A stretch of 64,000 nucleotides of DNA from positions 2,386 through 66,385 of the forward strand of contig JAERTI010000043.1 in assembly GCA_016844925.1 (NCBI GenBank), written 5' to 3'. Under the pieces are notes generated by a model, which had not been told where the DNA came from, made no database searches, and saw only the letters and a list, made by a program, of their open reading frames with translations. This stretch comes from Candidatus Uhrbacteria bacterium (GTDB lineage: Bacteria > Patescibacteriota > Patescibacteriia > UBA9934 > GWF2-40-263). Shown one piece after another: positions 35,831 to 50,810 of the stretch. Both the position numbers and the translations under genes were made by a program. Within the stretch, counting starts at the first letter, position 1. Each line of letters starts with the position of its first letter.

Positions 35831-35964
35831 TTCTGTAAAAGCGAATCTATGGTCATCTCGGGGCGGTTAGCCTATTAGGGCGTGCACAGATTCCGCCTAG
35901 AGATGTTTAATTGTACGTTGCAATATACTCCATTTTTGGGGTTTTGTCAAGGTATTATGACAAA

Positions 35965-39235: not shown

Positions 39236-39266
39236 TGATTGACAAAATCGCCATTTCCTGGTATCT
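39236..39266 (+). promoter_or_regulatory. sigma70-like promoter (TTGACA-17 nt-TATCTT) pointing toward array 2
   Basis: Direct read. Divergent from ftsK. Confidence 0.4.
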
Positions 39267-39299
39267 TCTGTCGTTCTTCAAAAGCCAAAAACCTGAGGT

Positions 39300-39365
39300 T
39301 TTGTGCACACTGGAGAGAGTCACAAAACCAAGAAAAAAGCCTGTGTTTGTAGGGAAATACCCTCT
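39300..39365 (+). terminator. hairpin plus T-tract (agcctgtgtttg...caaacacaggctcttttgttt)
   Basis: Direct read. Confidence 0.45.
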
Positions 39366-39395
39366 TCTCTCCAAACACAGGCTCTTTTGTTTGAG

Positions 39396-39459
39396 AAGGT
39401 TCCCCTTTGGTCCACCAATAAATGCCTGTATCCTGCAGCGTTGTTGGCTCAAAGGGGAA
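39396..39459. repeat. 12-bp inverted repeat (GGTTCCCCTTTG ... CAAAGGGGAAC) at the junction between core and array 2
   Basis: Direct read. Candidate attachment or boundary structure. Confidence 0.45.
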
Positions 39460-39469
39460 CTTCCTCCCA

Positions 39470-39916
39470 ATGACTCTAGCAAGAGGCGCGATGAAGCGTG
39501 ATGAGTTGCGGCACATGCCGCGGAAGACCACCGATAAGATCGGTGAGCAGGTAGGACGGGAGATCAACGAACGCATGGAAACCGGACGGTTTCGTGGGTG
39601 GCTGATGCGGCGACACTGGGTGTGGCTGTGGGTCATCATCGCGGGCAGCTGGGGACTGGACTTCGTGATCAACCACGCGCTGATGGCAGCCAACCTGGCG
39701 GCCGGACTCGGGCACTGGATCGACTGCATCCTGGGCCCCATCGATGCCGCCCTGGTCGCCGCCGCGCCGCTGGCGTCGGTGCGTGAGCTCTGGCGTCGTG
39801 TCTGGGTTCTGTACGACCGGTGGCGCCTGAGCCCCACCTCGGTGCCTGTGCCCAAGGCAGAGGTCCCCGAAGGTGCGTCAGTTCACGAGGAGGCCACGGA
39901 CGAGTCCGTCGCCTAA
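39470..39916 (+). CDS. small membrane protein (first ORF of array 2)
   Basis: GC-rich, 2-3 TM helices. Start uncertain. Confidence 0.35.
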   Translation: MTLARGAMKRDELRHMPRKTTDKIGEQVGREINERMETGRFRGWLMRRHWVWLWVIIAGSWGLDFVINHALMAANLAAGLGHWIDCILGPIDAALVAAAPLASVRELWRRVWVLYDRWRLSPTSVPVPKAEVPEGASVHEEATDESVA

Positions 39917-39919
39917 GCA

Positions 39920-40070
39920 CAACGGCCCGAGCGGCCTGCGAGTCTCGCAGCGCTAGCTCGGGACTCCATAGAAAACTCTGTGAGGTGCACTCTCCAGCAT
40001 CGCACGGGGATTTCTACGGAGTTTCGACTTCGGACAACAGCAAATCCCACAATGCTGGGTAAAGGATTGG
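39920..40070 (+). repeat. cassette-boundary element, array 2 orientation (CTCGGGACTCCAT...)
   Basis: gagtctcgcagcgctagctcgggactccatagaaaactctgtgaggtgcactctccagcatcgcacgggg. Confidence 0.7.
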
Positions 40071-40073
40071 TCA

Positions 40074-40544
40074 GTGACCAGTCATTCGTTGGAAAGAGCA
40101 ATTCGTTTGGGTCCTGAGACCCTTCGTAAGTATCGGGACACGAATCCCGACGATTGTGCTCTCTGGGGAGCGGACTTTAGCGGGTTGAATTTGGCAGGTG
40201 TTGATCTGTCGGGTATCTCCTGCTGGAACGTGAACTTCTCAGGTGCCAACCTTGCAGGGGCGAACCTCTCTCATGGCTCCTTCTGGAACTCGAACTTCTC
40301 GGGAGCAGACCTCGCGGGAGCGAACCTGTCCAACATGTCGTGTAACAGAGCGTGCTTTTTCGAGGCAAACCTCGCGGGAGCGAACTTCTCTTATACCTCC
40401 TGTTGGGATATGTGCTTTTTCGAGGCCAACCTCGCAGGAGCGAACTTCTCCCACAGTTCCTTCTGGGATCCGAACTTCTCAGGGGCCAACCTCGCAGGGG
40501 CGAGCCTTGGCGGGATGTGGCGTATTGACACGCGTGGAGATTAG
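40074..40544 (+). CDS. pentapeptide-repeat protein
   Basis: GTG start. NFSGANLAGANLS repeats. Confidence 0.65.
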   Translation: MTSHSLERAIRLGPETLRKYRDTNPDDCALWGADFSGLNLAGVDLSGISCWNVNFSGANLAGANLSHGSFWNSNFSGADLAGANLSNMSCNRACFFEANLAGANFSYTSCWDMCFFEANLAGANFSHSSFWDPNFSGANLAGASLGGMWRIDTRGD

Positions 40545-40549
40545 TTCAC

Positions 40550-40790
40550 CCAGAGGTTCGCAGCCTTGAGTTAAGGGTCGCGAGCAAAGACTAAGAGTGG
40601 GTTGAGAGGCAACTCCGAAGAAAACAAACGACGCAAACCCGAGCTTTGCGGCCGGGATCCACCCAGGGTCTCGCAGCACTAGCTCGGGACTCCATAGAAA
40701 ATTCTGTGAGATGCACTCTCCAGCATCGCACGGGGGTTTCTACGGAGTTCTGAACTCTGACAACCAAACCCCAACCACAGGAAGGTGCGA
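40550..40790 (+). repeat. cassette-boundary element (near-duplicate of the element at 39920-40070)
   Basis: ggtctcgcagcactagctcgggactccatagaaaattctgtgagatgcactctccagcatcgcacggggg. Confidence 0.7.
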
Positions 40791-41777
40791 GTGTTCGCAT
40801 GCTACGCCGAGGATCTGGGCCTGACCGGGCTCGTGGACCTCTGGGAGTACCGCTATCTGGCGCAGGAGGAGTCGCCGGAGAAGCTGGAGATGATGTGGGA
40901 CGAGGATCAGCTTCACCGCGAAGCGCTGGGTCTGTGCAACAAGTACAGCCTGGACGAGGAGTGGTCGGAGTCCGACCTGGTGCAGATGGTCTACAACCCG
41001 TCCTGGTACACCTCGTCCTTCGGGGAGTACTGGAGCGAGTGCTCTGACAGTGCGCGCGACCGCTTCTGCCTGATGATGCGCGAGGCGGCCCTGATCGCCC
41101 TGCAGATGCGCAAGGGGATCTACATGGATCCCGTGGACATCGAGCTGAGCGACTGGGACCACGACCTGGAGTACTACTGCGCGAGCAAGGCTGCCGCCAT
41201 GGTGCGCCGGGCTCAGCGGCACTTCACCAAGATCCAGGACCCTGGCAATCGCGAGTCGCGCCGGGCGAGTCGTCTGCACACCGAGGCGGCGCGTGGTCCC
41301 CAGTGGGCCAAGCACAAGCCGGGCTTCAACCCCGTCGAGCACTGCCGTGCTGGCCAGCTCGAGACCGAGCTGTGGACCGAGCAGAACCTGCAGGACGATG
41401 CTCAGGAGCTGATGGCTCGTGACGAGGAAGATGTCGAGTGTGAGCGCTGCGAGCGCGAGTACCGCGAGGAGCTGCGCGAGTTCGAATGGGAGCTGGAGAT
41501 GCTCTTGTACGAGAGCTACTACTGCGACGACCCTTGTTCGTGCTTGTACTGCATGGAGGATCAGGAACTGGACTGGGAGCAGGACGACTGCTGGGATGAT
41601 GAGCCTGGTGACTACGGTCTTCTGGACGTGACCTTCATCGGTCTGAACTCCAGCGGTGGACGTCGCCGGAAGATGGCGCGCGGTCCCCAGTGGGCCAAGC
41701 ACATCCCGGGCTTCAACCCCCGCAAGCCCGAGCGCCACAAGTTCGACATTCGCAAGGTAGCAACCTTCGCCGCCTGA
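40785..41777 (+). CDS. acidic Trp/Tyr-rich protein, family C (ARGPQWAKHxPGFNP motif occurs twice)
   Basis: C-terminus RGPQWAKHIPGFNPRKPERHKFDIRKVATFAA is homologous to the C-terminus of 20801..22381. Confidence 0.5.
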   Translation: MRVFACYAEDLGLTGLVDLWEYRYLAQEESPEKLEMMWDEDQLHREALGLCNKYSLDEEWSESDLVQMVYNPSWYTSSFGEYWSECSDSARDRFCLMMREAALIALQMRKGIYMDPVDIELSDWDHDLEYYCASKAAAMVRRAQRHFTKIQDPGNRESRRASRLHTEAARGPQWAKHKPGFNPVEHCRAGQLETELWTEQNLQDDAQELMARDEEDVECERCEREYREELREFEWELEMLLYESYYCDDPCSCLYCMEDQELDWEQDDCWDDEPGDYGLLDVTFIGLNSSGGRRRKMARGPQWAKHIPGFNPRKPERHKFDIRKVATFAA

Positions 41778-41779
41778 AC

Positions 41780-41910
41780 ACGGGCACATCGCCCAACGAC
41801 CCGAGTGTGAGCTCGAGATTCGCTGACAAGCCGTCAGTACGGAGTCTCGCGCTTAACACTCGGGACTCCACACGACGATTCGTTAACAGAACGAGTGGTC
41901 ATGAGGAGGA
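41780..41910 (+). repeat. cassette-boundary element
   Basis: gtctcgcgcttaacactcgggactccacacgacg. Confidence 0.6.
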
Positions 41911-41920
41911 AGGAGAAGAG

Positions 41921-42271
41921 ATGCTCTTGCTGTTTTTGATCCTGTCGGCTCCGGTGCCGGGGGTCGTGGCTGCTCAGGTAGTCACCATTCCCGACGAGCC
42001 CGGACCGGTCAGGCCCGTTCCCGACGAGCCCAAGCGTCTGGATCCGCCCATCGCAGCGGTTCCGCCTGAGGAACTGGTCTTCGAGCTGGGTCGTCGAGAG
42101 GTGCTGATTCGCGAGGAGGAGTTCATCATGCCGGTGCCCCCCAAGGGTTCCCGCGTCGAGAAGGCCGCCAACGCGAGGATGTACAAGGACTGGCGCAAGC
42201 CCGCGGGAGTTCCGCAGGCGCACCGCCGACCCCACCACAAGACCAGGCGCACCCGCGTCCGGTTTCACTAG
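41921..42271 (+). CDS. secreted proline-rich protein (signal peptide)
   Basis: GGAGGAAGGAGAAGAG RBS. N-terminus MLLLFLILSAPVPGVVAAQ. Confidence 0.4.
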   Translation: MLLLFLILSAPVPGVVAAQVVTIPDEPGPVRPVPDEPKRLDPPIAAVPPEELVFELGRREVLIREEEFIMPVPPKGSRVEKAANARMYKDWRKPAGVPQAHRRPHHKTRRTRVRFH

Positions 42272-42294
42272 CGCAACGCGCATACTGGAGGAAG

Positions 42295-42519
42295 ATGTCA
42301 GGACTCAAGCCGGCATTCGGATCCACGAAAGGAAAAGGAAAGCGCTCGCGCGTGCTCAGGCAGAAGCGGCGTGCTGAGATCCCGTTCGACAGAGCGGCGG
42401 ATCGGGCGCTGCGGGCAAATGCCGCGGCACGCGTGGAGGACACGATCGACCCGGAGATCATCGAGCGGTACGGGGGCAGGGCTCCCAGGGTGACCGCCTG
42501 GCGACGGGAAGACGAGTAG
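42295..42519 (+). CDS. small basic protein
   Basis: GGAGGAAG RBS. In the same cassette as 41921..42271. Confidence 0.35.
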   Translation: MSGLKPAFGSTKGKGKRSRVLRQKRRAEIPFDRAADRALRANAAARVEDTIDPEIIERYGGRAPRVTAWRREDE

Positions 42520-42524
42520 AAGGC

Positions 42525-42680
42525 TGGCTGAGGCTAGTCAACGAATACGACCCGAGCGGTCGGTTGCGAGTCTCGCAGCTGCACGCTCGGGACTCCAATG
42601 GAGACGGGCCAAGGGGGCTCGTTTGCTAGGGGTGCCGCAAGGCATTTCCGAAACCCACCATTCAACCTGTAGGAAGGTTT
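42525..42680 (+). repeat. cassette-boundary element
   Basis: gcgagtctcgcagctgcacgctcgggactccaatggag. Confidence 0.65.
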
Positions 42681-42682
42681 GA

Positions 42683-43231
42683 GTGCTGATCAACGCAATC
42701 ATGAACGGCGAAGAGACCCTGTTGGGTCTGGTGAATCAGGACACGCTGGCGTGCGCGGGTGGCGAGTGCGCCGTGGACTACGACACCGAGGGCGAGGACA
42801 TGCCCTTCATCGCCTACGTGGCCAAGCAGATCCTCGACGCCGAGTACTTCGAGGAGTACCCGATCTGTCAGTTGGTGGACATCTACCGCCGACCGATCGA
42901 GCACCTGGACACGTACCTCGAGTGGATCGAGGTGGCCATCACCGACAAGACTGCGTGCCTGATCCTGCGTGCCGCCGCCCTGATGGCCCTCAAGGCCCAG
43001 GCGGAGGATGAGATGGACCGGGAGTACACCCGCACCGAGCCCACGCCCGAGGACTACGGCATCAAGCCGATCCGCAGCGGCATGGGTCCCCGGTATCGCG
43101 GTGTCCCGGACTACATCAAGGACTACGATCCGGAGGACCGCCTCATCATCGACGAGGACGGCAACGAGTTCCGGCTGGCCATGATCAGCTGGAAGGACCT
43201 GGGTCGGTACACGCGGCAGTACGCCGCCTGA
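42683..43231 (+). CDS. hypothetical acidic protein, family C-related (GMGPRYRGVPDYIKDYDP)
   Basis: ORF track. Motif similar to the family C C-terminal motif. Confidence 0.45.
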   Translation: MLINAIMNGEETLLGLVNQDTLACAGGECAVDYDTEGEDMPFIAYVAKQILDAEYFEEYPICQLVDIYRRPIEHLDTYLEWIEVAITDKTACLILRAAALMALKAQAEDEMDREYTRTEPTPEDYGIKPIRSGMGPRYRGVPDYIKDYDPEDRLIIDEDGNEFRLAMISWKDLGRYTRQYAA

Positions 43232-43234
43232 ACA

Positions 43235-43390
43235 ACGGGGGCGCTCCCCACGCCGGGGAGCGCCCGCCCGAGCGAGTCCCACGACTTGCTCGGGACTCCA
43301 TCTTGCTTCTCGATTTGATCGAGCGGCGGGATGGAGCACAGTGGTAGAGCTCCTTGGGCTGGCATGGTGCCGGTCTGGTGTCGAGGTAAT
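43235..43390 (+). repeat. cassette-boundary element (GGGGCGCTCCCC-acgc-CGGGGAGCGCCC 3' hairpin, then CTCGGGACTCCATC...GGATGGAG)
   Basis: Direct read. Confidence 0.7.
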
Positions 43391-43394
43391 CGAC

Positions 43395-43634
43395 ATGACC
43401 AAGTCTGATTTGAAGGATGTGCTGGAAAATCTGTTTTGCCTGGTGGCTGCTGCCATCATGCTGGGTTGTTGGGCGACACTCTCGCTTGATGATGCTGTGT
43501 GGGGATTGGCCATTGGGGCAGCGACCTTTCCTTTCTTCATCGTGCTTGTGCGTTTCCTGAGCGCAGACAGCTCCAAGGCGGATCCTGGAACCGGCGCTGA
43601 AGGAGTTCCGCAGGTGGAAAAGCCTTCGGTCTGA
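43395..43634 (+). CDS. small membrane protein
   Basis: Start MTKSDLKD. 2 TM helices. Confidence 0.35.
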   Translation: MTKSDLKDVLENLFCLVAAAIMLGCWATLSLDDAVWGLAIGAATFPFFIVLVRFLSADSSKADPGTGAEGVPQVEKPSV

Positions 43635-43639
43635 AAAAA

Positions 43640-43815
43640 AGAAACGCCCGAGCCGTAGCGCTCAGGACTCATCGAGCCAAGCTCGAGACGGAAGTCCTTC
43701 GCAGCAGCTACGCACGCGCTCGGGACTCCATCGTTTGGCTCGACACGATCGAGACAAACGATGGAGCACAGTGGTAAAGCTCCTTGGACCGGGATTCCCT
43801 CGGTCTGGCTATAGG
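43640..43815 (+). repeat. cassette-boundary element
   Basis: cgctcgggactccatcgtttggctcgacacgatcgagacaaacgatggagcacagtggtaaagctcc. Confidence 0.7.
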
Positions 43816-43826
43816 TGGTCATTCAA

Positions 43827-44081
43827 ATGACCCATGACAACCCTCTGAACAATGTCCCGCAGCGGATCACTGAGATCAGCAAGATGCCTCCGGGCTTCAA
43901 GCGTGATGAAGCCATCGATTCGCTTCGCATCTTCCTCGCACAGACCGTCTCGGTCGCGAGGCTCTGCCTGGCAGAGCTCGACGCAGCACTGCTGCCTCAG
44001 AGTGATCGTCCCGAACGGATGGTCGTGCCGGCACTGTCTGAGTTCTGCAGGACCTCCGAGTGGATTCGGGATCCCAAGTGA
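43827..44081 (+). CDS. hypothetical small protein (first gene of a coupled pair)
   Basis: Stop overlaps the next start in a GTGA arrangement. Confidence 0.35.
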   Translation: MTHDNPLNNVPQRITEISKMPPGFKRDEAIDSLRIFLAQTVSVARLCLAELDAALLPQSDRPERMVVPALSEFCRTSEWIRDPK

Positions 44082-44491
44082 GCACATTCGTTTTCGTGGT
44101 CTTTGTCTCGTCTGAGCGAGTGAAGGCGACGGTTGTGCGGGTGACTGCCGCTGAACCAAAGGACGATGTGCGGCTTCGTGGTCGTGCCGTCGAGGTTCTG
44201 GTGGACGACACTTGGCATGAGATCGGGGTGGATGACGAGGAGGGAGGCATGTTGGGCACACAGCTCATCCGAGCCTTTTCCTCCAGTGGCCGAGCAGGTC
44301 ACTTCATCTTCAATCACCTTGGGCTGGACACCTACACCACACGCGATGGGACAATTTACCGTTGCGGTGGAAGGCACATGCCCAAGATCACTGATCTGAC
44401 GCTCGGTCTCCTCAAGGCGGCGGAGCGGATCAAGTGGCAAGAGCAGCAGGCTGCGCGAAAGCGGCAGCAAGAAGACGACCCGAGCGAGTAG
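44078..44491 (+). CDS. hypothetical protein (second gene of the coupled pair)
   Basis: GTG start overlapping the TGA of the upstream gene. Confidence 0.4.
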   Translation: MSTFVFVVFVSSERVKATVVRVTAAEPKDDVRLRGRAVEVLVDDTWHEIGVDDEEGGMLGTQLIRAFSSSGRAGHFIFNHLGLDTYTTRDGTIYRCGGRHMPKITDLTLGLLKAAERIKWQEQQAARKRQQEDDPSE

Positions 44492-44645
44492 CGCTCACGT
44501 CTCCACACTGGAGGCCTTAGAAGCAGCTACGCACGCGCTCGGGACTCCATCTGACGTTTCGATACGGTCGAGACATCAGATGGAGCACAGTGGTAAAGCT
44601 CCACAAACGGCCTCAGGACGCGGGTTCCGTATTCCTGTGAAGGTC
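44485..44645 (+). repeat. cassette-boundary element
   Basis: cgctcgggactccatctgacgtttcgatacggtcgagacatcagatggagcacagtggtaaagctcc. Confidence 0.7.
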
Positions 44646-44647
44646 TG

Positions 44648-44890
44648 ATGTTCGAGTATCTCATGGCAGGGCCATGGTTTGGTGAGCACAGAATCGATCC
44701 CATGTGGATCAGGCAGCAGATCGTTCGAACGCTCTTGCTTCCCAAGGGCGATCTTCGTCAGTGGAGCCTCGGAGAGATCCGCAAGGAACTGACGGCTGCG
44801 CGTGATGATTGCGACAGGCTCCTGCAAGAGCTTGAAGAAGCTATCGCGGCAGATACCGAGAAGTCTGCGGCTACAGGTGACTCGGCATGA
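44648..44890 (+). CDS. hypothetical small protein (coupled via an ATGA overlap to 44887..45102)
   Basis: ORF track. Stop/start overlap with the next gene. Confidence 0.35.
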   Translation: MFEYLMAGPWFGEHRIDPMWIRQQIVRTLLLPKGDLRQWSLGEIRKELTAARDDCDRLLQELEEAIAADTEKSAATGDSA

Positions 44891-45102
44891 GCGGTGACAA
44901 GCCCACGCTGCCCGCCCCCAAGCTCAACCTCGGGGACCTGATCAACATGTTCTACGAGGAGTACCTGGCGCTCTACCAGGATGAAGACGTTGCCTCCGTG
45001 GCTGCCGCCGCGACGATCAACAACATCCTGCGCGACGCCGACGAGAGGGATCTGCAGATCGAACGGTCTCCAGCGCCCAAAAAAGAAACGCCCGAGCCGT
45101 AA
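44887..45102 (+). CDS. small protein, family D (ASVAAAATINNIL motif)
   Basis: Paralog of 45286..45507 and 45603..45839. Confidence 0.4.
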   Translation: MSGDKPTLPAPKLNLGDLINMFYEEYLALYQDEDVASVAAAATINNILRDADERDLQIERSPAPKKETPEP

Positions 45103-45285
45103 CGCTCAGGACTCATCGAGCCAAGCTCGACACGGAAGTCCTTCGCAGCAGCTACGTACGCGCTCGGGACTCCATCCCGCGTTTCGACGAGTTCGAGATG
45201 TGAGATGGGGAAACCCAACCTGGTCTCTAGGCCTCTGACCTAGATAAAAACGGGAATCCTCCCGTTTGAACAGACTACGAGCAAC
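45085..45285 (+). repeat. cassette-boundary element plus an AAACGGGAATCCTCCCGTTT hairpin about 20 nt before the next start
   Basis: Direct read. The same pre-start hairpin occurs at 48395-48420. Confidence 0.65.
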
Positions 45286-45507
45286 ATGACTGATTCAAAA
45301 CAGTCGACCGATTCAAGTGGAACTGGTCTGGGGGTTCTTATCACTATGTTCTTTAACGAGTTCATGGAGATGTACGGAGACGAAGAGCTCGCCAGCGTTG
45401 CCACTGCCGCTGTGATCAACGACCTTCTTGTGGATGCTCGGGAGGAAGAAGAGCAGCACGCAAAGAACACGCACGGCAAAGATGTGAAGGGCACAAAGCA
45501 GAACTAG
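45286..45507 (+). CDS. small protein, family D
   Basis: LITMFFNEFMEMYGDEELASVATAAVINDLL. Confidence 0.4.
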   Translation: MTDSKQSTDSSGTGLGVLITMFFNEFMEMYGDEELASVATAAVINDLLVDAREEEEQHAKNTHGKDVKGTKQN

Positions 45508-45509
45508 CA

Positions 45510-45600
45510 TTCTGATCCTTCGCTCGACAAAGTCGCACTGTACGAGTGCGGCCTCCATCCGACATCTTGAGTAAAGTATTCGAGGTGTGAGATGGAGGAA
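45510..45600 (+). repeat. hairpin element CCTCCATCCGACATC...GTGTGAGATGGAGG
   Basis: Direct read. Confidence 0.55.
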
Positions 45601-45602
45601 GT

Positions 45603-45839
45603 GTGAAGCAAGGTAAAGGCGAGAGCCTCGAGCCTCTGATCACGCTGTGGTACGACACGTACTTTGCGTTGTTCGGAGAGGGAAGCGAGGAGTTGGCGTC
45701 GGTGGCTGCTGCGGCAACCATCAACAACATCCTTGCGGACAGAGAAAAGCAGAAAAAGGTCGAGGATGCTCTGCGGCTCGTAAGGGAACACGCCGAGCCG
45801 TCGACCAGCGACGACGAGAGGGGTTCGGGGCACAACTAG
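45603..45839 (+). CDS. small protein, family D
   Basis: LITLWYDTYFALFGEGSEELASVAAAATINNIL. Confidence 0.4.
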   Translation: MKQGKGESLEPLITLWYDTYFALFGEGSEELASVAAAATINNILADREKQKKVEDALRLVREHAEPSTSDDERGSGHN

Positions 45840-45891
45840 TGCCTCGGGCCTCGCCTAGCAACAACGCCCCAACATCAAAAGGAGGTGTCTC

Positions 45892-46092
45892 ATGGGCAAG
45901 AAGAAGGGGAAGCGCAGCCAGCCGGTTGTGCCCAAGAAGAAGGACGATGGCACGATTGTCATCAAGCGGGAGGATCTCCCGAAGGAGCGGGGGGCTCCCA
46001 TCCCCCGTGGGCAGCGGTTTCACACCCGCAACCGTGACATCCGTCGCGGATCCCGGCGTCACCCTAAGCACAAGGGCCGGCGCGAAGATTAA
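45892..46092 (+). CDS. very basic small protein
   Basis: AAAGGAGGTG RBS. K/R-rich. Confidence 0.35.
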   Translation: MGKKKGKRSQPVVPKKKDDGTIVIKREDLPKERGAPIPRGQRFHTRNRDIRRGSRRHPKHKGRRED

Positions 46093-46094
46093 CC

Positions 46095-46190
46095 CCAACC
46101 TCACGGAGGTACCGATGTATACGTACATCAACGGAGCCGTGCTGAACGAGTACGGCTTCCCATCTGAGTTTTCGAATGATCGTAGGTTCG
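46095..46190 (+). repeat. hairpin element of type A (CCCATCT...GGATGGG)
   Basis: cccatctgagttttcgaatgatcgtaggttcggatggg. Confidence 0.5.
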
Positions 46191-46233
46191 GATGGGAATC
46201 AACCCGACACCCCAAAGGAGGTATCTGGGGAAC

Positions 46234-47046
46234 ATGACAGAGCAGGAGCGGCATCGCTCAAACAACGAGACGGAGCAGCGGCTGAGGGCTGCGTCGAAGT
46301 CGATCAGGGAGGCCTGGGACGACTTTCTGGAGAGCCATCCCTCTTATACGGAAGAGACCGTACTGGAGTATGGACTTTCGTACAGCGTCTATCGGCGCGA
46401 AGTGGACCTGCGTTGCCTGGACTTGATCCAGGTGGATATGGGGCACAGTTTCTTCCTGCCAGATTGTCTTGTGGAGTTCAATCGGTGGGGCCATACCAGC
46501 CTTCTCGATGCGATCATGACCAACATCGAGTTTCGGACCTGTGTGTTCGAACGCGTGTCGTTTGCGGGCGCTGACCTGCGCGGAGCAGAGTTTCGCTCGT
46601 GTGACCTGTTCTTCGTCGATTTTCAGGAGGCGAACCTTGAGCGCGCCAACCTGGAGCGACTGAACCTGGAGATGTGTTGGTTCAAGGGAGCCAACCTGGA
46701 GATGGCGAACATTCGTCAGACCATTCTCGAGGAAGCCTACTGGTTGCCAGCACTTCTGCTGCTCTGGCGCCCGATGGATTCTCGTGAGCGGCTCTACTAC
46801 GCACGGGAGCTCATGCGCTTTCGGCGGAAGGTCCGCTGGGGAACCAATGGGGCTGATCCGTACGATGTCCGTGGCGACAAACCACAGAACGTGGACGACT
46901 TTCGTCGCTATTCAGCGGTTCACGACAACGTGTTCGAGCGAGCGTGGAGAACGCATGGGATTACCCCCGCGCAGGTGGTATCCGCACTGAAGCGTTACGC
47001 TCCAGGAACCCTGACCCGAACGGCCAGGAAGATCTTTCTCGGGTGA
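46234..47046 (+). CDS. pentapeptide-repeat-containing protein
   Basis: AAAGGAGG RBS and start MTEQERHRS. Central ADLRGAEF / ANLERANLERLNLE repeats. Confidence 0.5.
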   Translation: MTEQERHRSNNETEQRLRAASKSIREAWDDFLESHPSYTEETVLEYGLSYSVYRREVDLRCLDLIQVDMGHSFFLPDCLVEFNRWGHTSLLDAIMTNIEFRTCVFERVSFAGADLRGAEFRSCDLFFVDFQEANLERANLERLNLEMCWFKGANLEMANIRQTILEEAYWLPALLLLWRPMDSRERLYYARELMRFRRKVRWGTNGADPYDVRGDKPQNVDDFRRYSAVHDNVFERAWRTHGITPAQVVSALKRYAPGTLTRTARKIFLG

Positions 47047-47049
47047 CGA

Positions 47050-47180
47050 CCCAACAAATACGTAACGAGAGCTGTGCAGTGACTCCGTTAGGCCACACGG
47101 GCCGACGTTGAGACCGAGCACAGCTTCCTCTCTGGCTTCTCGAGTTCGCTCGAGAGGTGAGACAGGATCTTGAACCGGAG
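47050..47180 (+). repeat. type B element (ACGAGAGCTGTGC...GAGCACAGCTTCCTCTC...), which contains GTTAGGC
   Basis: Direct read. Three copies occur, at 47050, 49655 and 50640. Confidence 0.6.
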
Positions 47181-47185
47181 TTCTT

Positions 47186-47611
47186 ATGACCCCTGACCAG
47201 ACGCTGGCAGTGCTGCTAGGTCTGCTTGTCGTGGTGGTGTGCGCAGGTGCGCATACGTGGTACCGCGGCTGGCGACTGCACCAGAAATCCTTCAGGAGGG
47301 CGCACTACGCGCATGTGATCCTGGATGGATCACGGATGCTCAACCGCACACACGGGTACCTCGCGTATCCGCAAGTCTACTTGTGCCCAATCTTCAAGAT
47401 CGGGTGGGAGGATGGCTACGCGTGCGTGCAGTACATGGAGGGCAGAGCGGTCGTAGATCCAGATCGATACGACGCCGAGCTCGGCGGTGAGCTCTACTTC
47501 TTCAACGATGGAGAGTGCACCCACCACGTACTCGTCGGTCACCAGATCGACGTGAAGCTCTTCTATCGGCAGCTCGGCTGCCACAGACTCAGCGCCCGCA
47601 TCGCGCTGTGA
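47186..47611 (+). CDS. hypothetical protein with an N-terminal TM helix
   Basis: ORF track. Confidence 0.4.
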   Translation: MTPDQTLAVLLGLLVVVVCAGAHTWYRGWRLHQKSFRRAHYAHVILDGSRMLNRTHGYLAYPQVYLCPIFKIGWEDGYACVQYMEGRAVVDPDRYDAELGGELYFFNDGECTHHVLVGHQIDVKLFYRQLGCHRLSARIAL

Positions 47612-47614
47612 CAA

Positions 47615-47705
47615 CGGCTCAGCTGTGCCCCGACTCCCGATGACGACCATCGGTCGAGTCGCCGCACAGCTTCCCATCTTACGGATTGATCAATGTGATC
47701 GAGCT
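47615..47705 (+). repeat. type A hairpin element (CCCATCTTACGGATTGATC...GATCGAGCTGTGAGATGGG)
   Basis: Direct read. Four copies precede consecutive genes. Confidence 0.6.
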
Positions 47706-47745
47706 GTGAGATGGGACGTAGATCATTTTAGTTAGCCACAAGGAA

Positions 47746-48258
47746 GTGGCAGAAAGGGAACACGTGGAAACGATTCCTGTGACAGAGATCGGGGATGCTG
47801 TGATTGTGGTGTTGATGATTCTCTTCATCCTGCTTCAGGCTGGAGTCCTCGATGTCTTGGAGCCAGTCGCTCACTGCCTCGAGAGGAAGTGGCGAGGGGT
47901 TCCGATCCTGCATGTACGCTTCCTGGACGGTGTGCCAGTGTCCGCGGAAGTGACAATCGTCTGGAGCTGCGAGGATCTCAGCTACTCCCGCAACAACGTG
48001 GCAGACTTCGAGCATGTCGCTCTGGTGGTTCGGTACCACAACAAAGGCATGCTGGATGTGCAGGCCAAGTTCGGAGAAGAGGTTCTCGTGTCCCCCCTGT
48101 GGGATGTGAGCAACCCAAGGCACACGGTCGAGTACGGGCGTTTCAAGCACCTCCTGCTTGTGTGTCCAAGTCGGGAGCATGCCGAGTCATTCAGTGAGTC
48201 GTTCGGGCTCTCTGAGATTCTCGGAACAGAACAGCTTCCCGACAAGGTGAAGCCCTAA
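47746..48258 (+). CDS. hypothetical protein (strand uncertain; the antisense ORF 47728..48180 is also open)
   Basis: GTG start after AAGGAAG. GC-rich, with both frames open. Confidence 0.3.
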   Translation: MAEREHVETIPVTEIGDAVIVVLMILFILLQAGVLDVLEPVAHCLERKWRGVPILHVRFLDGVPVSAEVTIVWSCEDLSYSRNNVADFEHVALVVRYHNKGMLDVQAKFGEEVLVSPLWDVSNPRHTVEYGRFKHLLLVCPSREHAESFSESFGLSEILGTEQLPDKVKP

Positions 48259-48289
48259 CGACGAACGGCTGTGGCAGTGTTTCCCGGTA

Positions 48290-48430
48290 GCGCACCGGTT
48301 GAGATGTTGTCACGGCCGCCCATCTTACGGATTGATCAGAAGGATCGAGTCGTGAGATGGGGAAACCCAACTCGGTCTCTAGGCCAGTGTCCTAGATAAA
48401 GGCGGGAATCCTCCCGTTTGAACAGACCAA
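48290..48430 (+). repeat. type A hairpin element plus the AAAGGCGGGAATCCTCCCGTTT pre-start hairpin
   Basis: Direct read. Confidence 0.6.
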
Positions 48431-48437
48431 AGATGCC

Positions 48438-49127
48438 ATGGGAAACATGACCCATATGCTCCTGCTGCTGGACGGAAAGGATCGTCTCAATAGGTGGATG
48501 GCTGAGAATCCTGGAGAGGAACTGGATTATCAGCGCGCGACACTGAGGGGCATTGATCTGGAGTTCATGAAGCTCCGTGCCACCTTTGTCCGCGCAGATC
48601 TGACGGGCGCCCGGCTGAAAGGTACGGATCTGACAGCGGCAGACATGCGGTCCTGCAGACTCGGTGGCGCTGACCTCACAGATGCCAACCTTCGCGGTCT
48701 GAGCCTTTCAGGTGCCTACATGCCGCACGCCCGTCTCGATGGTGCGTGCTTGGTCGACGTAGATTTCCGTGGAGCGTCTTGCTACGGCGTGAGTCTCCAT
48801 GGGGCTGATCTGACGGGAACCATCCTCGATCTGAACCAGTGGGGAGCCGCCCTTCTCGATCGCTGGGATCGTGCGACGCAGCTTCAGCGCAGGTACATCA
48901 TGCCCATCCTCAGGCAGGCAGATCAGATTCGTATCTCGCCAGATGAGAATCAAAACCCGTGGACGAGAAATGGGTTGTTCCTCGCCAGGGATGACAGCTT
49001 CTCTCAGATGTGGAGCACCCGCGCTCTTAAGATACAGCTCTTCCTGGACTTCCTCTGGAAACATCGTGAGAATGATCTGCGGGCCATCGGGTTCAACGCT
49101 TGTCCTCAGGAGATCCCCTTGCACTAG
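48438..49127 (+). CDS. pentapeptide-repeat protein (subtype 1 C-terminal domain)
   Basis: LNRWMAENPGEELDY N-terminal motif and GTILDLNQWGAALLDRWD C-terminal domain. Confidence 0.6.
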   Translation: MGNMTHMLLLLDGKDRLNRWMAENPGEELDYQRATLRGIDLEFMKLRATFVRADLTGARLKGTDLTAADMRSCRLGGADLTDANLRGLSLSGAYMPHARLDGACLVDVDFRGASCYGVSLHGADLTGTILDLNQWGAALLDRWDRATQLQRRYIMPILRQADQIRISPDENQNPWTRNGLFLARDDSFSQMWSTRALKIQLFLDFLWKHRENDLRAIGFNACPQEIPLH

Positions 49128-49199
49128 TCGTTCAAAACAAGAATGACACTCTCTGATTCCGGGAAATGTACGCCCCGTTGAGTCAGACGGTCCCTCGAG

Positions 49200-49280
49200 C
49201 AGCACGTGCTCAAGGGAATCCATCCCACAACTTGATCGAACGGATCGAGTTGTGAGATGGGGTATGACCCCATAAAGGAG
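49200..49280 (+). repeat. type A hairpin element
   Basis: catcccacaacttgatcgaacggatcgagttgtgagatgggg. Confidence 0.6.
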
Positions 49281-49285
49281 AAAGG

Positions 49286-49654
49286 ATGGATCGCGTGGTT
49301 GCACGTCTGATCACGTACGGGCTGTGCGCCTTAGCCTGCACTCTTCTCGGAGTGTTTGGTGTGTTGATGGCTGTGCTGATGCTCTGGCCGTTGGTGCTGG
49401 GAGCACCGTTCATGCCCGACTGGGCAAATGTTCTTGCGCCACTGGTCGCTCCGGTGTACTGGATCGGCTTCTACAAGCTCATTCCTGTACTTCGTAGGCC
49501 CCTGCTTGAGCTTCTGGGTTCGGCAACGGCGACCTTGGGCGAGTTCCTCGAAGATCAGTGGGTTACTCGTCTGGGTAACGGAGTGAAGTGGTGCGACGAT
49601 GACTTCATGGATCCTTTTAAGGAGGATCGTTCGAAGCCGTTGTCAGACAACTAA
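49286..49654 (+). CDS. membrane protein
   Basis: AAAGGAGAAAGG RBS. 3 TM helices. Confidence 0.4.
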   Translation: MDRVVARLITYGLCALACTLLGVFGVLMAVLMLWPLVLGAPFMPDWANVLAPLVAPVYWIGFYKLIPVLRRPLLELLGSATATLGEFLEDQWVTRLGNGVKWCDDDFMDPFKEDRSKPLSDN

Positions 49655-49810
49655 ACATACGAGAGCTGTGCTTGACTGCCGTCAGGCAGGACGAGACTCC
49701 GCGAGACCACACGGGTCCGCGTTGAGACCGAGCACGGCTTCCTCTCCGGACTTTCGAGTGAATCGAGGTTCCAGAGAGGGAATCGTTCCCACAACAAACG
49801 GCGGGAGTTC
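49655..49810 (+). repeat. type B element
   Basis: acgagagctgtgcttgactgccgtcaggc...gagcacggcttcctctccgg. Confidence 0.6.
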
Positions 49811-49867
49811 CGTCCCCGGCTCCGGGTAGGAGTGTCTTGATGCTACTCAGTAGCTAAAGGACATGGT

Positions 49868-50128
49868 GTGATTATTCTCGAAGGGTTGTTTATCGCACTG
49901 GTGTTGTTCATCAGGTTCAGCTTCAAGTTCTTCAGCATTGTGGCCGACCTAGCTACGGTGATGTACATGGTTTGCTGGCCGATTATCACCACGATGCTTG
50001 CCATCGAGTTGAGCATCCAGAATCAGCTTCTGGACCCCCTGGGGTCTACCGTGAACATCTTGGCCGCACTGGCCTTCTGCATCCAAATTCTCTGGTGGTT
50101 CGTCTTGCCCAGCAGGATCGGGCCGTAG
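49868..50128 (+). CDS. small membrane protein
   Basis: 86 aa with 3 TM helices. Confidence 0.4.
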   Translation: MIILEGLFIALVLFIRFSFKFFSIVADLATVMYMVCWPIITTMLAIELSIQNQLLDPLGSTVNILAALAFCIQILWWFVLPSRIGP

Positions 50129-50164
50129 AGATAATGGATGGCTACGCTGTGACAGACTCCGAGG

Positions 50165-50230
50165 GACGACCCCTCGTTGAGACTGGACACAGCGTCCCAT
50201 CTGACAGTTTGATCAATAGGATCGAGTTGT
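50165..50230 (+). repeat. type A hairpin element
   Basis: cccatctgacagtttgatcaataggatcgagttgtgagatggg. Confidence 0.6.
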
Positions 50231-50273
50231 GAGATGGGAATTCTCCCTAAACCCGAGGAGGTATCCGGGAAAA

Positions 50274-50621
50274 GTGGAACGTTATTTTAAGAGGTGGCAG
50301 TTTCTTGCACTGGGCTCCGTCCGGGTGCTCACGGTTGCAGCCATGTTCTTGTACATCTACCTCATCTCGCATCACGCGATTTGGTGGCTGTACTTTCCGA
50401 TGATGTGCATTATTCAGGTCGACGCGCTGGCGTGCATTGTTGGTGTTCATGGCAGAAGACTCGAGGCTGCAGAGCGTTACGCAGAGAAGGGGACGGCCCA
50501 AAACCGAAATGCACTTATGAGTGCGACTTCTCCTTTGCGAATTCCGAGACTGCTTCGGGACAACGTCTTCATGCATCTGTCCGTATGGCTACTTTTCGTC
50601 CTTTCGTTGGTGCTACGATAA
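50274..50621 (+). CDS. membrane protein
   Basis: GGAGG followed 11 nt later by a GTG start. 3-4 TM helices. Confidence 0.4.
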   Translation: MERYFKRWQFLALGSVRVLTVAAMFLYIYLISHHAIWWLYFPMMCIIQVDALACIVGVHGRRLEAAERYAEKGTAQNRNALMSATSPLRIPRLLRDNVFMHLSVWLLFVLSLVLR

Positions 50622-50639
50622 AACAAGAATGAGCACCTC

Positions 50640-50810
50640 ACGATCCCAGCGGGGTTGTTGATGCACAAGAGCGCGAACTCAAGCGCACGAGAGCTGTACT
50701 GAAGACTCCCGGTGACGATCACCGGTAGAAGTTACAGGACGGCTTCCTCTCCGGACTCTCGATTAAATCGAGGTTCCAGAGAGGGATTGGTTGCTGAGAG
50801 AATTCTCACA
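50640..50810 (+). repeat. type B element (last of array 2)
   Basis: cacgagagctgtactgaag...acggcttcctctccggactctcgattaaatcgaggttccagagaggga. Confidence 0.6.

What the first reader, a model, noticed from the sequence alone, without database searches (positions are those of the whole stretch)
39396..50810. Array 2: the same element family in inverted orientation with about 20 plus-strand cassettes, plus two extra hairpin families
From 39.9 kb the same core appears as its reverse complement (CTCGGGACTCCATC...GATGGAG), and all genes are on the plus strand. The element orientation relative to the coding strand is therefore identical in both arrays, as expected if the gene and element move as one cassette. 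The right half (46-51 kb) uses two further element families: type A hairpins (CCCATCT..TTGATC...GATCGAG..TGTGAGATGGG, 5 copies, each just upstream of a start codon) and type B (ACGAGAGCTGTGC...GAGCACAGCTTCCTCTC, 3 copies, each just downstream of a stop codon). A conserved AAACGGGAATCCTCCCGTTT hairpin sits about 20 nt before two start codons. The two arrays face away from each other and bracket the rodZ-like gene and ftsK.
Basis: seen in the sequence. Interest (0 to 1): 0.85.

Follow-up and report, generated by a model that had tools for sequence, protein, structure and literature searches.

The report
Gene-cassette arrays with double-hairpin junctions
An uncultured Candidatus Uhrbacteria (CPR) genome carries integron-like arrays of small genes separated by a conserved double-hairpin element that marks where genes are gained and lost, although it has neither integron attC sites nor an integrase nearby, so it may be an undescribed way of capturing genes.

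Summary
Region 39.4-50.8 kb holds about 21 plus-strand ORFs: 3 pentapeptide-repeat proteins and 17-18 with no Pfam hit. They are separated by 17 structured elements.

All elements share one architecture: hairpin H1, a 0-2 nt linker, then hairpin H2. The canonical form has an invariant junction, TCGGG-A-CTCCA.

A covariance model finds the element only inside the two arrays of this window.

The organism is a Candidatus Uhrbacteria (CPR) bacterium. Relatives with the same recA / rodZ-ftsK / rpoB synteny carry arrays of 0 to 25 kb at the same sites. Cassette replacements and indels begin and end exactly at the junction core.

Array 2 is really two arrays inserted into a conserved operon, P71-P66-[one element]-p531. 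An array-less relative has the same operon.

The elements fail every sequence and structure test for attC. No integrase or transposase lies in the window or within 10 kb of the loci in relatives.

Best reading: an integron-like cassette platform that uses a new kind of recombination site, with the recombinase unknown. The main rival is an RNA-level intercistronic element with cassette turnover by homologous recombination.

The parts
39239..39267 (+). Head promoter of array 2 (TTGACA, 17 nt spacer, TATCTT, with TG extension)
   Evidence: It scores 10 of 12, and the only better match in 35.5-53.8 kb is the array-1 head promoter. It is conserved in relatives L057, L122, L123 and L136.
39268..39393 (+). 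Conserved leader: invariant CTGGAGAGAG (39310-39319), then an intrinsic terminator hairpin (39339-39382) and a T-run
   Evidence: Five sequences from four lineages keep the terminator stem and the invariant decamer. No Rfam family matches.
39422..39916 (+). First gene of array 2a (164 aa, no Pfam hit)
   Evidence: It is shared at 94.6% nucleotide identity with the L135/L136 strains.
39926..40021 (+). Element E1: H1 (CCCGAGC..GCTCGGG), linker A, H2 (CTCCATAGAAA..TTTCTACGGAG); core at 39958-39968
   Evidence: minimum free energy -56.5 kcal/mol, z -7.7. This is the left junction of a replaced cassette.
40074..40544 (+). Pentapeptide-repeat cassette gene (156 aa). Strains L135 and L136 have an unrelated 191-aa gene here.
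40638..40747 (+). Element E2; core at 40684-40694; right junction of the replaced cassette
   Evidence: (z -6.5).
41800..41908 (+). Element E3; core at 41860-41870
   Evidence: (z -9.0).
42551..42667 (+). Element E4; core at 42587-42597. H2 lacks its 3' arm, which is intact in L135.
43267..43336 (+). Element E5, canonical short form
   Evidence: z -9.7; 64.9 bits.
43647..43766 (+). Element E6; its H1 holds a degenerate inner copy of the core
   Evidence: z -7.0; 64.3 bits.
44479..44585 (+). Element E7
   Evidence: z -7.6; 71.4 bits.
45091..45210 (+). Element E8, followed by a leader module containing AAACGGGAATCCTCCCGTTT (45249-45268)
   Evidence: z -5.0; 63.9 bits. The leader module recurs at 48362-48437 and in L136.
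45534..45598 (+). Element E9 (short H1 plus an H2 of CCTCCATCC..GGATGGAGG type), 7 nt before P71c
   Evidence: z -8.5; 36.1 bits.
45603..46092 (+). Conserved platform genes: P71c (45603-45839) and basic P66 (45892-46092). P71 paralogues lie at 44887-45102 and 45286-45507.
   Evidence: Homologues occur in L057, L122, L130, L135, L141, L143 and the array-less L145.
46148..46203 (+). Element E10: a type A H2 at the position of the single native element of L145 (between P66 and the next gene)
   Evidence: (41.3 bits).
47066..47165 (+). Element E11: type B H1 (GAGCTGTGC..GCACAGC) plus an H2 variant
   Evidence: (z -3.8).
47619..47716 (+). Element E12: B-like H1 plus type A H2
   Evidence: (z -10.0).
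48268..48362 (+). Element E13: H1 plus type A H2
   Evidence: (z -6.7).
49190..49262 (+). Element E14: short H1 plus type A H2
   Evidence: (z -8.0).
49660..49780 (+). Element E15: type B H1 plus H2 variant CCTCTCC..GGAGAGG
   Evidence: (z -5.3).
50145..50239 (+). Element E16: B-like H1 plus type A H2
   Evidence: (z -8.2).
50688..50785 (+). Element E17: type B H1 plus H2 variant; the last element of array 2b
   Evidence: (z -5.3).
51083..52678 (+). p531: conserved, fast-evolving, lineage-restricted platform gene at the distal end of array 2b, function unknown
   Evidence: There is no Pfam, NCBIfam or PDB match.
10547..35950 (-). Array 1 of the same system: head promoter 35950-35922, leader with terminator, about 27 cassettes with 25 canonical cores, and a terminal half-site CCCGAGCCCTCGCTCGGGA followed by a T-run at about 10575-10600

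Best explanation
The arrays are an integron-like gene-cassette platform in a Candidatus Uhrbacteria (CPR) chromosome.

**Layout.** Each array starts with a strong promoter, followed by a leader that ends in an intrinsic terminator. After that come co-oriented, mostly promoterless cassettes.

**The site between cassettes.** Neighbouring cassettes are joined by a bipartite site. H1 is a long, variable hairpin closed by CCCGAGC/GCTCGGG. One unpaired A follows. H2 is a hairpin closed by CTCCATC/GATGGAG.

**The cassette.** A cassette is [H2 - 5' leader - gene(s) - H1]. Cassettes are inserted, deleted and replaced by recombination within the invariant 11-nt junction TCGGG-A-CTCCA. Circularising a cassette would therefore rebuild a complete H1-A-H2 site, as circularising an integron cassette rebuilds attC.

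**Array 2b.**

**Shown here**
- The two-hairpin architecture and its covariation.
- Restriction of the element to the arrays.
- Fixed chromosomal sites with array content ranging from 0 to 25 kb.
- Homology breakpoints at the junction core.

**Inferred**
- A sequence- and structure-specific recombinase encoded elsewhere in the genome catalyses the exchange.
- It probably acts on the folded coding (top) strand.

The elements may also affect RNA stability or translation. In a minority of copies the H2 3' arm is the Shine-Dalgarno sequence of the next gene.
For: 1. **The element is real.** 31 cores against 0.02 expected. All 15 array-2 elements that I folded give H1, a linker and H2, with z from -3.8 to -10.0.
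2. **H2 covaries.** 17 pairs, 12 of them with compensatory changes. 94.7% of cells are paired, against 81.7% in shuffles (0 of 500 reach it) and 35-47% when the partner is slid.
3. **The junction is invariant.** (c)GC-TCGGGACTCCA-TC in 67 unique copies from at least 10 genomes or strains, while the stems around it vary. The copies were found by searching for this motif with at most 1 mismatch, so only the flanking positions are unbiased evidence.
4. **The element is restricted to arrays.** All model hits with E below 0.01 lie in 10960-35232 (minus) or in array 2 (plus). None lies in the 27 kb of non-array sequence. One weak hit appeared in about 550 kb of unrelated control loci.
5. **Fixed sites, variable content.**
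   - recA | rodZ holds 25 kb here, about 9 kb in strains with 99% identical RodZ and about 92% backbone nucleotide identity, about 7 kb in L125, and nothing in L122, L133, L145 and L147.
   - ftsK | rpoB holds from 3 genes (L145) to 11 kb.
6. **Breakpoints fall at the core.**
   - Window cassette 40074-40544 is replaced by an unrelated gene in L135. Homology ends after GCTCGGGACTCCAT at 39970 and resumes at GCTCGGGACTCCAT at 40683.
   - Cassette 18759-17874 is shared with L137 at 90%, exactly from core to core, with different H1 upstream and different H2 downstream.
   - Many other alignment ends lie at offsets -14 to +24 from the core.
7. **The native site is where cassettes accumulated.** Array-less L145 has one H1+H2 element between P66 and the p531 homologue. 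That is exactly where array 2b sits in the window.
8. **Distinct composition.** Arrays are 56-60% GC whatever the backbone (45-55%).
9. **Expression layout.** There are no plus-strand promoter-like sites inside array 2, and the two best promoters are at the array heads.
10. **Strand bias.** Wobble G.T pairs in H2 favour the coding strand, about 55 cells against about 13 A.C cells. In attC sites the same kind of bias marks the recombining strand (PMC5027507).
Against: - No recombinase is identified. The window and the +/-10 kb flanks of relatives hold only housekeeping recA, ruvC and ftsK.
- Unrelated cassettes share only the core, so homology must end there whatever the mechanism. This weakens the breakpoint argument.
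- Breakpoints are not unique. Some lie at the 3' end of H2 (+47 to +50), at the end of the leader (about +137), inside H2 (window 42667) or at the 5' edge of H1. That mosaic is what homologous recombination or gene conversion among repeats would give.
- Array 2b elements have a different junction sequence (GCACAGC-TT-CCCATCT). A single sequence-specific enzyme cannot read both.
- Orientation follows transcription, not replication. GC skew is positive across the whole window while the two arrays are on opposite strands. This suits an RNA-level role as well.
- All comparison sequences are metagenome assemblies. Some scaffolds break, with N gaps, exactly at the core.
- The copies counted for strand bias are related to one another and are not independent events.
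Confidence: 0.55

Rival explanations
1. The double hairpin is an RNA-level intercistronic element of long polycistronic transcripts. Cleavage at the single-stranded junction would leave each cistron with a 5' hairpin (H2) and a 3' hairpin (H1) that stabilise it. H2 would also modulate translation by pairing CUCC with the GGAG of a Shine-Dalgarno sequence. Cassette gain and loss would then be a by-product of homologous recombination or gene conversion between these repeats, for example after uptake of DNA from relatives. No dedicated recombinase would be needed.
For: - Orientation is tied to transcription in both arrays although they lie on opposite replication strands.
- There is one promoter per array and no internal promoters or terminators.
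- Wobble pairs favour the transcribed sense.
- In 11 of 79 elements the GGAG(G) of the H2 3' arm lies at most 12 nt before the start codon (L123, L124 and L133).
- An array-less relative keeps a single element between two genes of a conserved operon.
- Leaders of about 140 nt with further hairpins are shared by unrelated genes.
- Breakpoints form a mosaic at several conserved segments.
- L122 has tandem 594-bp duplications.
Against: - In 68 of 79 elements the start codon is more than 12 nt beyond H2, mostly with its own ribosome-binding site. SD sequestration is therefore not general.
- An RNA role alone does not explain why new genes accumulate exactly at the element, or why replaced units run core to core.
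- An 11-15 nt identical core is too short for efficient RecA-dependent exchange (general knowledge).
- The core is invariant across genomes whose core genes are only 65-75% identical. This implies a conserved reader.
- H1 shows no strand bias.
Confidence: 0.3
2. The elements are selfish REP/BIME- or MITE-like palindromic repeats. A transposase encoded elsewhere (for example a RAYT or IS200-like HUH enzyme) would spread them into intergenic spaces of a hypervariable island. The genes between them would not be mobilised by them.
For: - The repeats are hairpins with a conserved base and a variable top.
- The fold is strand-specific.
- Nested, degenerate inner copies occur within H1.
- About 130-nt low-GC inserts inside H2 are shared between L057 and L122.
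Against: - There is no copy outside the arrays in this window.
- All copies are in direct orientation and lie exactly one per inter-cassette gap.
- Indel units include genes and are bounded by the cores.
- No Y1/HUH transposase is found in the window or in the flanks of relatives.
- There are no hits in the phage, plasmid or viral collections.
Confidence: 0.07
3. The arrays are a canonical sedentary integron without its integrase (a CALIN), with diverged attC sites.
For: The layout is the same: co-oriented, mostly ORFan and promoterless cassettes behind one promoter, imperfect palindromic sites between them, and strain-level turnover.
Against: - R''/R' boxes (RYYYAAC..GTTRRRY) are at chance level: 0 pairs in array 2 and 1 in array 1.
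- None of the 25 array-1 cores has GTTRRRY within 80 nt.
- The site is two tandem hairpins, not one hairpin with extrahelical bases.
- The G.T bias is on the top strand, not the bottom strand (against PMC5027507).
- No intI is present.
Confidence: 0.05

Closest known systems
Sedentary chromosomal integrons and CALINs (attC cassette arrays; IntI tyrosine recombinase)
   Same: - Long chromosomal arrays of co-oriented, mostly promoterless cassettes of unknown function behind a single head promoter.
- Structured imperfect palindromes between cassettes.
- Cassette boundaries inside the conserved part of the site, so a circular cassette would rebuild the site.
- Large content differences between close relatives at a fixed locus.
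- Site subfamilies exist.
- G.T mispairs are biased to one strand.
   Different: - There is no AAC/GTT core and no R or L boxes.
- The site is two tandem hairpins joined by a single base, with an 11-nt invariant junction.
- The fold is favoured on the coding (top) strand.
- No intI lies adjacent.
- A leader with an intrinsic terminator sits between promoter and array.
- Three insertion points lie in one neighbourhood, two of them inside a conserved operon.
- The host is a CPR bacterium.
REP/BIME elements with RAYT transposases; IS200/IS605 subterminal hairpins
   Same: - Hairpins with a conserved base sequence.
- Strand-specific folding.
- Recognition of hairpin plus adjacent single-stranded bases is the known logic of HUH enzymes. 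Those enzymes would be one candidate class for the missing recombinase.
   Different: - REPs are dispersed genome-wide, often as inverted pairs, and do not delimit gene cassettes.
- Here the copies occur only in arrays, all in direct orientation and one per gap.
- No RAYT or TnpA gene is seen.
Intercistronic stabiliser or processing hairpins and SD-sequestering hairpins in polycistronic mRNAs
   Same: - The position is between a stop codon and the next start codon.
- The hairpins are stable.
- The 3' arm of H2 is purine-rich and SD-like, and the 5' arm is anti-SD-like.
- Orientation is tied to transcription.
   Different: - Such elements are not known to carry an invariant junction shared by dozens of unrelated genes.
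- They are not known to coincide with the boundaries of gene gain and loss.
- Only 11 of 79 copies place the SD-like arm next to a start codon.
pdif modules (XerC/D-site-flanked modules on Acinetobacter plasmids)
   Same: Small gene modules are bounded by short conserved recombination sites. The arrays here lie next to ftsK.
   Different: - pdif sites are 28-bp sites with two inverted 11-bp arms, and they flank modules in alternating orientation.
- Here the core has no dyad symmetry and all copies are direct.

Membership tests
Integron attC site / CALIN | Conserved inverse core R'' (RYYYAAC) and core R' (GTTRRRY) at the two ends of the site, as defined in PMC5027507 | tested here: not met
   There are 0 complementary R''/R' pairs in array 2 and 1 in array 1, against shuffle means of 0.1-0.6. 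None of the 25 array-1 cores has GTTRRRY within 80 nt.
Integron attC site / CALIN | A single imperfect hairpin with extrahelical bases, an unpaired central spacer and a variable terminal structure | tested here: not met
   All 15 array-2 elements that I folded form two separate hairpins joined by 0-2 nt. H1 does have internal loops, but no conserved extrahelical-base pattern was seen.
Integron attC site / CALIN | Bottom-strand folding is favoured (G.T mispairs enriched on the bottom strand) | tested here: not met
   In H2 about 55 G.T cells lie on the coding (top) strand, against about 13 A.C cells. H1 shows no bias.
Integron | An intI tyrosine recombinase with an attI site next to the array | tested here: not met
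   Searches found no Phage_integrase domain among the ORFs of the window that I scanned. The precomputed Pfam annotation of genes within +/-10 kb in 8 relatives shows none either. The rest of the genome was not available.
Integron (functional definition) | Co-oriented, promoterless cassettes expressed from one upstream promoter; cassette boundaries within the conserved site | tested here: met
   (promoters only at the array heads). (all genes on the plus strand). (core-to-core units).
REP/BIME-RAYT | Genome-wide dispersal in intergenic regions, often as inverted pairs, with a flanked RAYT gene | tested here: not met
   One search gave no copy in 27 kb of non-array sequence. One search shows all copies are direct within an array. 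No Y1 transposase was found. Only 64 kb of the genome could be tested.
Known RNA families (Rfam 15) | A match to a curated covariance model | tested here: not met
   (gathering threshold) found only two tRNAs. One search (E up to 5 over 39150-51000) gave only chance-level hits.
SD-sequestering translational hairpin | The Shine-Dalgarno sequence of the downstream gene lies in the 3' arm, 5-12 nt before the start codon | tested here: inconclusive
   The feature is met in 11 of 79 elements, mainly in L123, L124 and L133. In 68 of 79 the start codon is 13-372 nt away.
pdif / Xer modules | A 28-bp site with two inverted 11-bp arms and a 6-bp spacer; sites alternate in orientation around modules | tested here: not met
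   The core consensus cGCTCGGGACTCCATC has no dyad symmetry. All copies are in direct orientation.

The most novel reading that the evidence does not exclude
Candidatus Uhrbacteria possess a previously unrecognised gene-capture system that arose independently of integrons. A dedicated, still unidentified enzyme would recognise a folded top-strand double hairpin, cut at the single unpaired base between the hairpins, and excise and insert cassettes. The insertions go into promoter-proximal sites and into a conserved P71-P66-p531 platform operon, whose lineage-restricted proteins could themselves be part of the machinery.
Probability: 0.35. Interest if true: 0.92.

Novelty: new variant of a known kind. 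Interest (0 to 1): 0.8.

Why it matters
Integrons are the only well-understood bacterial system that stockpiles and shuffles promoterless gene cassettes. Their defining parts are IntI and attC.

Here the same genomic behaviour appears with a different site architecture and no integrase nearby. Cassettes lie behind one promoter, their boundaries lie inside a structured site, and content turns over heavily between relatives.

The host belongs to the Candidate Phyla Radiation. These organisms have about 1 Mb genomes that are thought to be streamlined and poor in mobile elements. The two arrays make up about 36 kb of this 64 kb window.

If a dedicated recombinase exists, it would be a new class of single-strand or structure-specific recombination system and a possible genome-engineering tool.

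If no such enzyme exists, the arrays show how structured intercistronic repeats alone can drive modular gene exchange.

Either way the cassettes form a large pool of unknown genes that varies between strains of an episymbiotic lineage. They encode pentapeptide-repeat proteins, small membrane proteins and ORFans, and may be relevant to host interaction or defence.

I found no paper describing this in the searchable library.

Tried and rejected
2. **Viral contigs, plasmids and phages.** No match, so there is no evidence for a phage or plasmid origin.
3. **Rfam at gathering and permissive thresholds.** Nothing matched.
4. **Apparent cassette indels between L135 and L141.** These turned out to be 100-N scaffold gaps placed exactly after the core. 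I discarded them.
5. **p531 as a candidate enzyme.**
   - It has no Pfam, NCBIfam or PDB-sequence match.
   - The word-indexed search found only 5 homologues, and the library of 1.84 billion proteins holds 48 representatives.
   - The AlphaFold model has mean pLDDT 42.5, too poor for a fold search, so none was run.
   - The positional analogues in L123 and L133 show no BLASTP similarity. The L145 and L143 proteins are homologous.
6. **Strand preference from folding energies of whole hairpins.** H1 shows no bias and H2 only a weak one (p = 0.01). The per-pair wobble count is clearer, but it is not phylogenetically independent.
7. **Complementarity between the array-head leaders and the core (guide-RNA idea).** Nothing is conserved across relatives.
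8. **GAGTC/GACTC motif enrichment.** It is explained by the core and the H2 loop themselves, with no independent signal.
9. **A dif/Xer-like reading of the core.** Rejected because the core has no dyad symmetry.
10. **Pfam on 20 of the about 21 array-2 ORFs; the third P71 paralogue (45603-45839) was not scanned.** Only 3 pentapeptide-repeat proteins were hit, and no defence or mobility domains.

Full report

Yes.

- The 14-mer CTCGGGACTCCATC, allowing one mismatch, occurs 31 times in the window against 0.02 expected. Twenty-five copies are on the minus strand between 11.0 and 35.2 kb and six on the plus strand between 39.96 and 45.18 kb.
- Region 39.4-50.8 kb carries about 21 plus-strand ORFs with coding-type codon-position GC (GC3 0.59-0.91).
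- Three of these ORFs are pentapeptide-repeat proteins. The rest have no Pfam hit, and nine of the 21 have predicted membrane segments.
- The arrays flank a RodZ-like gene and ftsK. The wider context is ychF, ribosomal protein S6, ssb, epmA-like, efp, recA | array 1 | rodZ, ftsK | array 2 | p531, rpoB, rpoC, yebC, ruvC and two tRNAs.

**2. Anatomy of the element**

Read on the coding strand, every inter-cassette element has the same architecture.

- H1 is a long, imperfect, sequence-variable hairpin. It is canonically closed by CCCGAGC/GCTCGGG.
- A linker of 0-2 nt follows, canonically one A.
- H2 is canonically closed by CTCCATC/GATGGAG, with a short form of 41-42 nt.

All 15 array-2 elements that I folded adopt this two-hairpin shape, with z-scores from -3.8 to -10.0 against dinucleotide shuffles.

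An alignment of 38 distinct short-form H2 copies from the window and from eight relatives supports the fold:

- It gives a 17-pair helix in which 12 pairs show compensatory changes.
- 94.7% of cells are paired, against 81.7% in column shuffles (0 of 500 reach the observed value) and 35-47% when partners are slid.

Across 67 distinct copies the junction (c)GC-TCGGGACTCCA-TC is essentially invariant, while the sequence around it varies. These copies were collected by searching for the motif with at most one mismatch, so only the flanking positions are unbiased evidence.

'Type B' (GAGCTGTGC..GCACAGC) is an H1 with a different closing stem. 'Type A' (CCCATCT..AGATGGG) and the CCTCTCC..GGAGAGG hairpin are H2 variants with compensated closing stems. 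The covariance model built from H2 finds them. They are therefore not additional element families but a sequence-divergent subfamily of the same bipartite element.

**3. Distribution**

- With filters off, the model hits only the two arrays. Nothing appears in the 27 kb of flanking and intervening housekeeping sequence.
- In about 550 kb of control loci from unrelated genomes, chosen because they contain the exact 14-mer, it gives a single weak hit.
- There is no match in viral contigs, plasmids or phages, and none to any Rfam family.

**4. Whose genome, and what do relatives look like?**

RodZ homologues are named Candidatus Uhrbacteria or Patescibacteria by their sources. The synteny rpoC-rpoB ... 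ftsK-rodZ-(p77)-recA-...-efp-epmA-ssb-S6-ychF is conserved in this lineage.

At the recA | rodZ site the array content differs widely:

| Genome | Array at recA / rodZ |
|---|---|
| Window | 25 kb, about 27 cassettes |
| Strains with 99% identical RodZ, about 92% backbone nucleotide identity | about 9 kb, about 10 cassettes |
| L125 | about 7 kb |
| L143 / L144 | about 6 kb |
| L122, L133, L145, L147 | none |

At ftsK | rpoB the content ranges from three genes (L145) to the 11 kb seen here.

The arrays are 56-60% GC in every genome, whatever the backbone (45-55%). That fits either a shared cassette pool or a recombination-driven GC bias.

**5. Array 2 is two arrays in a conserved operon**

The array-less relative L145 has, between ftsK and rpoB: a promoter, a 63-aa acidic protein, a 66-aa very basic protein, one H1 + type-A H2 element, and a 447-aa protein.

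These three proteins are homologous to the window's P71 (three paralogues at 44887, 45286 and 45603), P66 (45892-46092) and p531 (51083-52678).

- Array 2a (39.4-45.6 kb, canonical cores) lies between the promoter/leader and P71.
- Array 2b (46.1-50.8 kb, type A/B elements) lies exactly at the native element between P66 and p531.

p531 belongs to a small lineage-restricted family, with 48 representatives among 1.84 billion proteins. It has no recognisable domain, and its structure model is unusable (pLDDT 42.5).

**6. Where do gains and losses begin and end?**

- Between the window and strain L135/L136, the pentapeptide cassette at 40074-40544 is replaced by an unrelated 191-aa gene. Homology stops right after GCTCGGGACTCCAT (window 39970) and resumes at GCTCGGGACTCCAT (40683). 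The replaced unit therefore carries its own H2 at the 5' end and its own H1 at the 3' end.
- Cassette 18759-17874 of array 1 is shared at 90% with strain L137, from TTCGGGACTCCATC to GCTCGGGACTCCATC. The H1 upstream and the H2 downstream are different in the two genomes.
- In all-against-all comparisons many alignments start at offsets 0 to -14 or end at +8 to +24 relative to the core.
- At the end of array 1, a strain with identical RecA has a different last cassette. Homology resumes at ACG|CCCGAGCCCTCGCTCGGGA followed by a T-run, which is a terminal half-site.
- In strain L137 the array-1 leader is followed directly by a minimal H1, the core and H2. This looks like a primary insertion site.

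The cassette is therefore [H2 - leader - gene(s) - H1], and a circular cassette would rebuild H1-A-H2.

Three caveats apply:

1. Unrelated cassettes share only the core, so homology must end there whatever the mechanism.
2. Other breakpoints exist: at the 3' end of H2, at the end of about 140-nt leader modules shared by unrelated genes, and inside H2 at 42667.
3. Some scaffolds have N gaps at the core. I excluded these.

**7. DNA or RNA?**

Points favouring or compatible with an RNA role:

- Orientation follows transcription rather than replication. GC skew is positive over the whole window.
- Each array has one strong head promoter and no internal ones.

Points that do not discriminate:

- H2 has many more G.T than A.C cells on the coding strand, about 55 against 13. 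H1 shows no bias.
- A G.T bias is what one expects of an RNA. It is also what marks the recombining strand of attC sites: 1.24 against 0.39 G:T per site (PMC5027507).

Points against a purely translational role:

- The H2 3' arm is SD-like. It is the likely ribosome-binding site in only 11 of 79 elements.

The accumulation of cassettes exactly at the elements, the core-to-core units and the invariant junction across genomes with 65-75% core-gene identity make a DNA-level role as recombination site the best single explanation (confidence 0.55). An RNA-level intercistronic role with turnover by homologous recombination remains a serious rival (0.3). The two are not exclusive.

**8. Comparison with known systems**

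Functionally this is closest to sedentary chromosomal integrons or CALINs, but it fails the membership tests:

- No R''/R' boxes.
- Two hairpins instead of one.
- Top-strand rather than bottom-strand bias.
- No intI in the window or in the flanks of relatives.

It is not REP/BIME-like, because it is confined to arrays, all copies are direct, there is one copy per gap, and no RAYT is seen. It is not pdif-like, because the core has no dyad symmetry.

Literature searches for integrons or cassette arrays in Uhrbacteria, Patescibacteria or CPR returned nothing relevant. The library is incomplete, so prior description cannot be excluded.

**9. Verdict**

- Novelty: a new variant of a known kind, namely an integron-like cassette platform with a new site type and an unknown recombinase, in a CPR bacterium.
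- Interest: 0.8.

Noticed in passing
window 39268-39393 (+) and 35921-35787 (-); also L057, L122, L123, L125, L136, L143, L144: Both array heads have a near-consensus promoter (TTGACAAAA..GGTATCTT). About 110-130 nt of conserved leader follows, ending in an intrinsic terminator. The array-2 leader has an invariant CTGGAGAGAG that is complementary to CTCTTCTCTCC on the 3' side of the terminator, which could act as an antiterminator. This could be an attenuator or riboswitch gating array transcription, or a stand-alone small RNA. No Rfam family matches.
   Followed up: partly
window 44887-46092 and 51083-52678; L145 5550-7430: The operon P71 (acidic, about 65-78 aa), P66 (very basic, RRHPKHKG C-terminus) and p531 (N-terminal CxxC..CxxC) is conserved across Uhrbacteria relatives, including one without arrays. 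It is 59-65% GC against a backbone of about 51%. No function is known, and these proteins could be part of the system.
   Followed up: partly
window 10313-10600 (-): A 77-aa ORF with a weak match to Phd-family antitoxins (E 0.005, below the curated cut-off) is conserved immediately upstream of recA in relatives. It is preceded by a conserved palindromic TGTCAGACAATTGTTTGACAAATGTCTGACA, which looks like an operator or promoter for p77-recA.
   Followed up: partly
window 43658-43682 and 45102-45126 (inside H1 of elements E6 and E8): The H1 hairpins contain a degenerate inner copy of the core plus a mini-hairpin (TCAGGACTCATCGAG..CTCGAGAC). Many canonical H1 inner stems (GAGACTC..GGAGTCTC) also resemble the core. 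This suggests nested or compound sites left by past events.
   Followed up: no
L057 1020-1165 and 2310-2460; L122 11298-13224: H2 hairpins in two distant relatives carry a low-GC insert of about 130 nt (TTTGTCATTCTGACCCCGCCAAAGGCGG...), shared at about 85% identity. It is either a MITE-like insertion or a long-form H2. L122 also has 3-4 tandem copies of a 594-bp cassette at 99% identity at its contig end.
   Followed up: no
window 45216-45285 and 48362-48437; L136 (reverse strand, about 770-890): A roughly 70-nt 5' leader module has two hairpins, including AAACGGGAATCCTCCCGTTT. It precedes unrelated genes (a P71 paralogue and two pentapeptide proteins) that lack an obvious SD. Several other leader modules of about 140 nt are likewise shared by unrelated cassettes in array 1.
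   Followed up: partly
window 36702-36940 and 38433-38590 (ftsK, minus strand): FtsK carries long acidic (E/D-rich) low-complexity tracts at its C-terminal end and in its linker. They appear as GAA/GAG-type repeat families in the repeat scan.
   Followed up: no
arrays versus backbone in the window, L057, L122, L125, L143 and L145: Arrays are uniformly 56-60% GC while backbones range from 45 to 55%. This is compatible with a shared mobile cassette pool or with GC-biased gene conversion in a recombination hotspot.
   Followed up: partly
window H2 loops (for example 17850-17870) and junction cores: The hexamer GACTCC recurs at the H1/H2 junction, in the inner stem of many H1 hairpins, and in the apical loop of the commonest H2 (TTCGACTCCGGTCGAG). 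It may be the motif read by the unknown trans-acting factor.
   Followed up: partly
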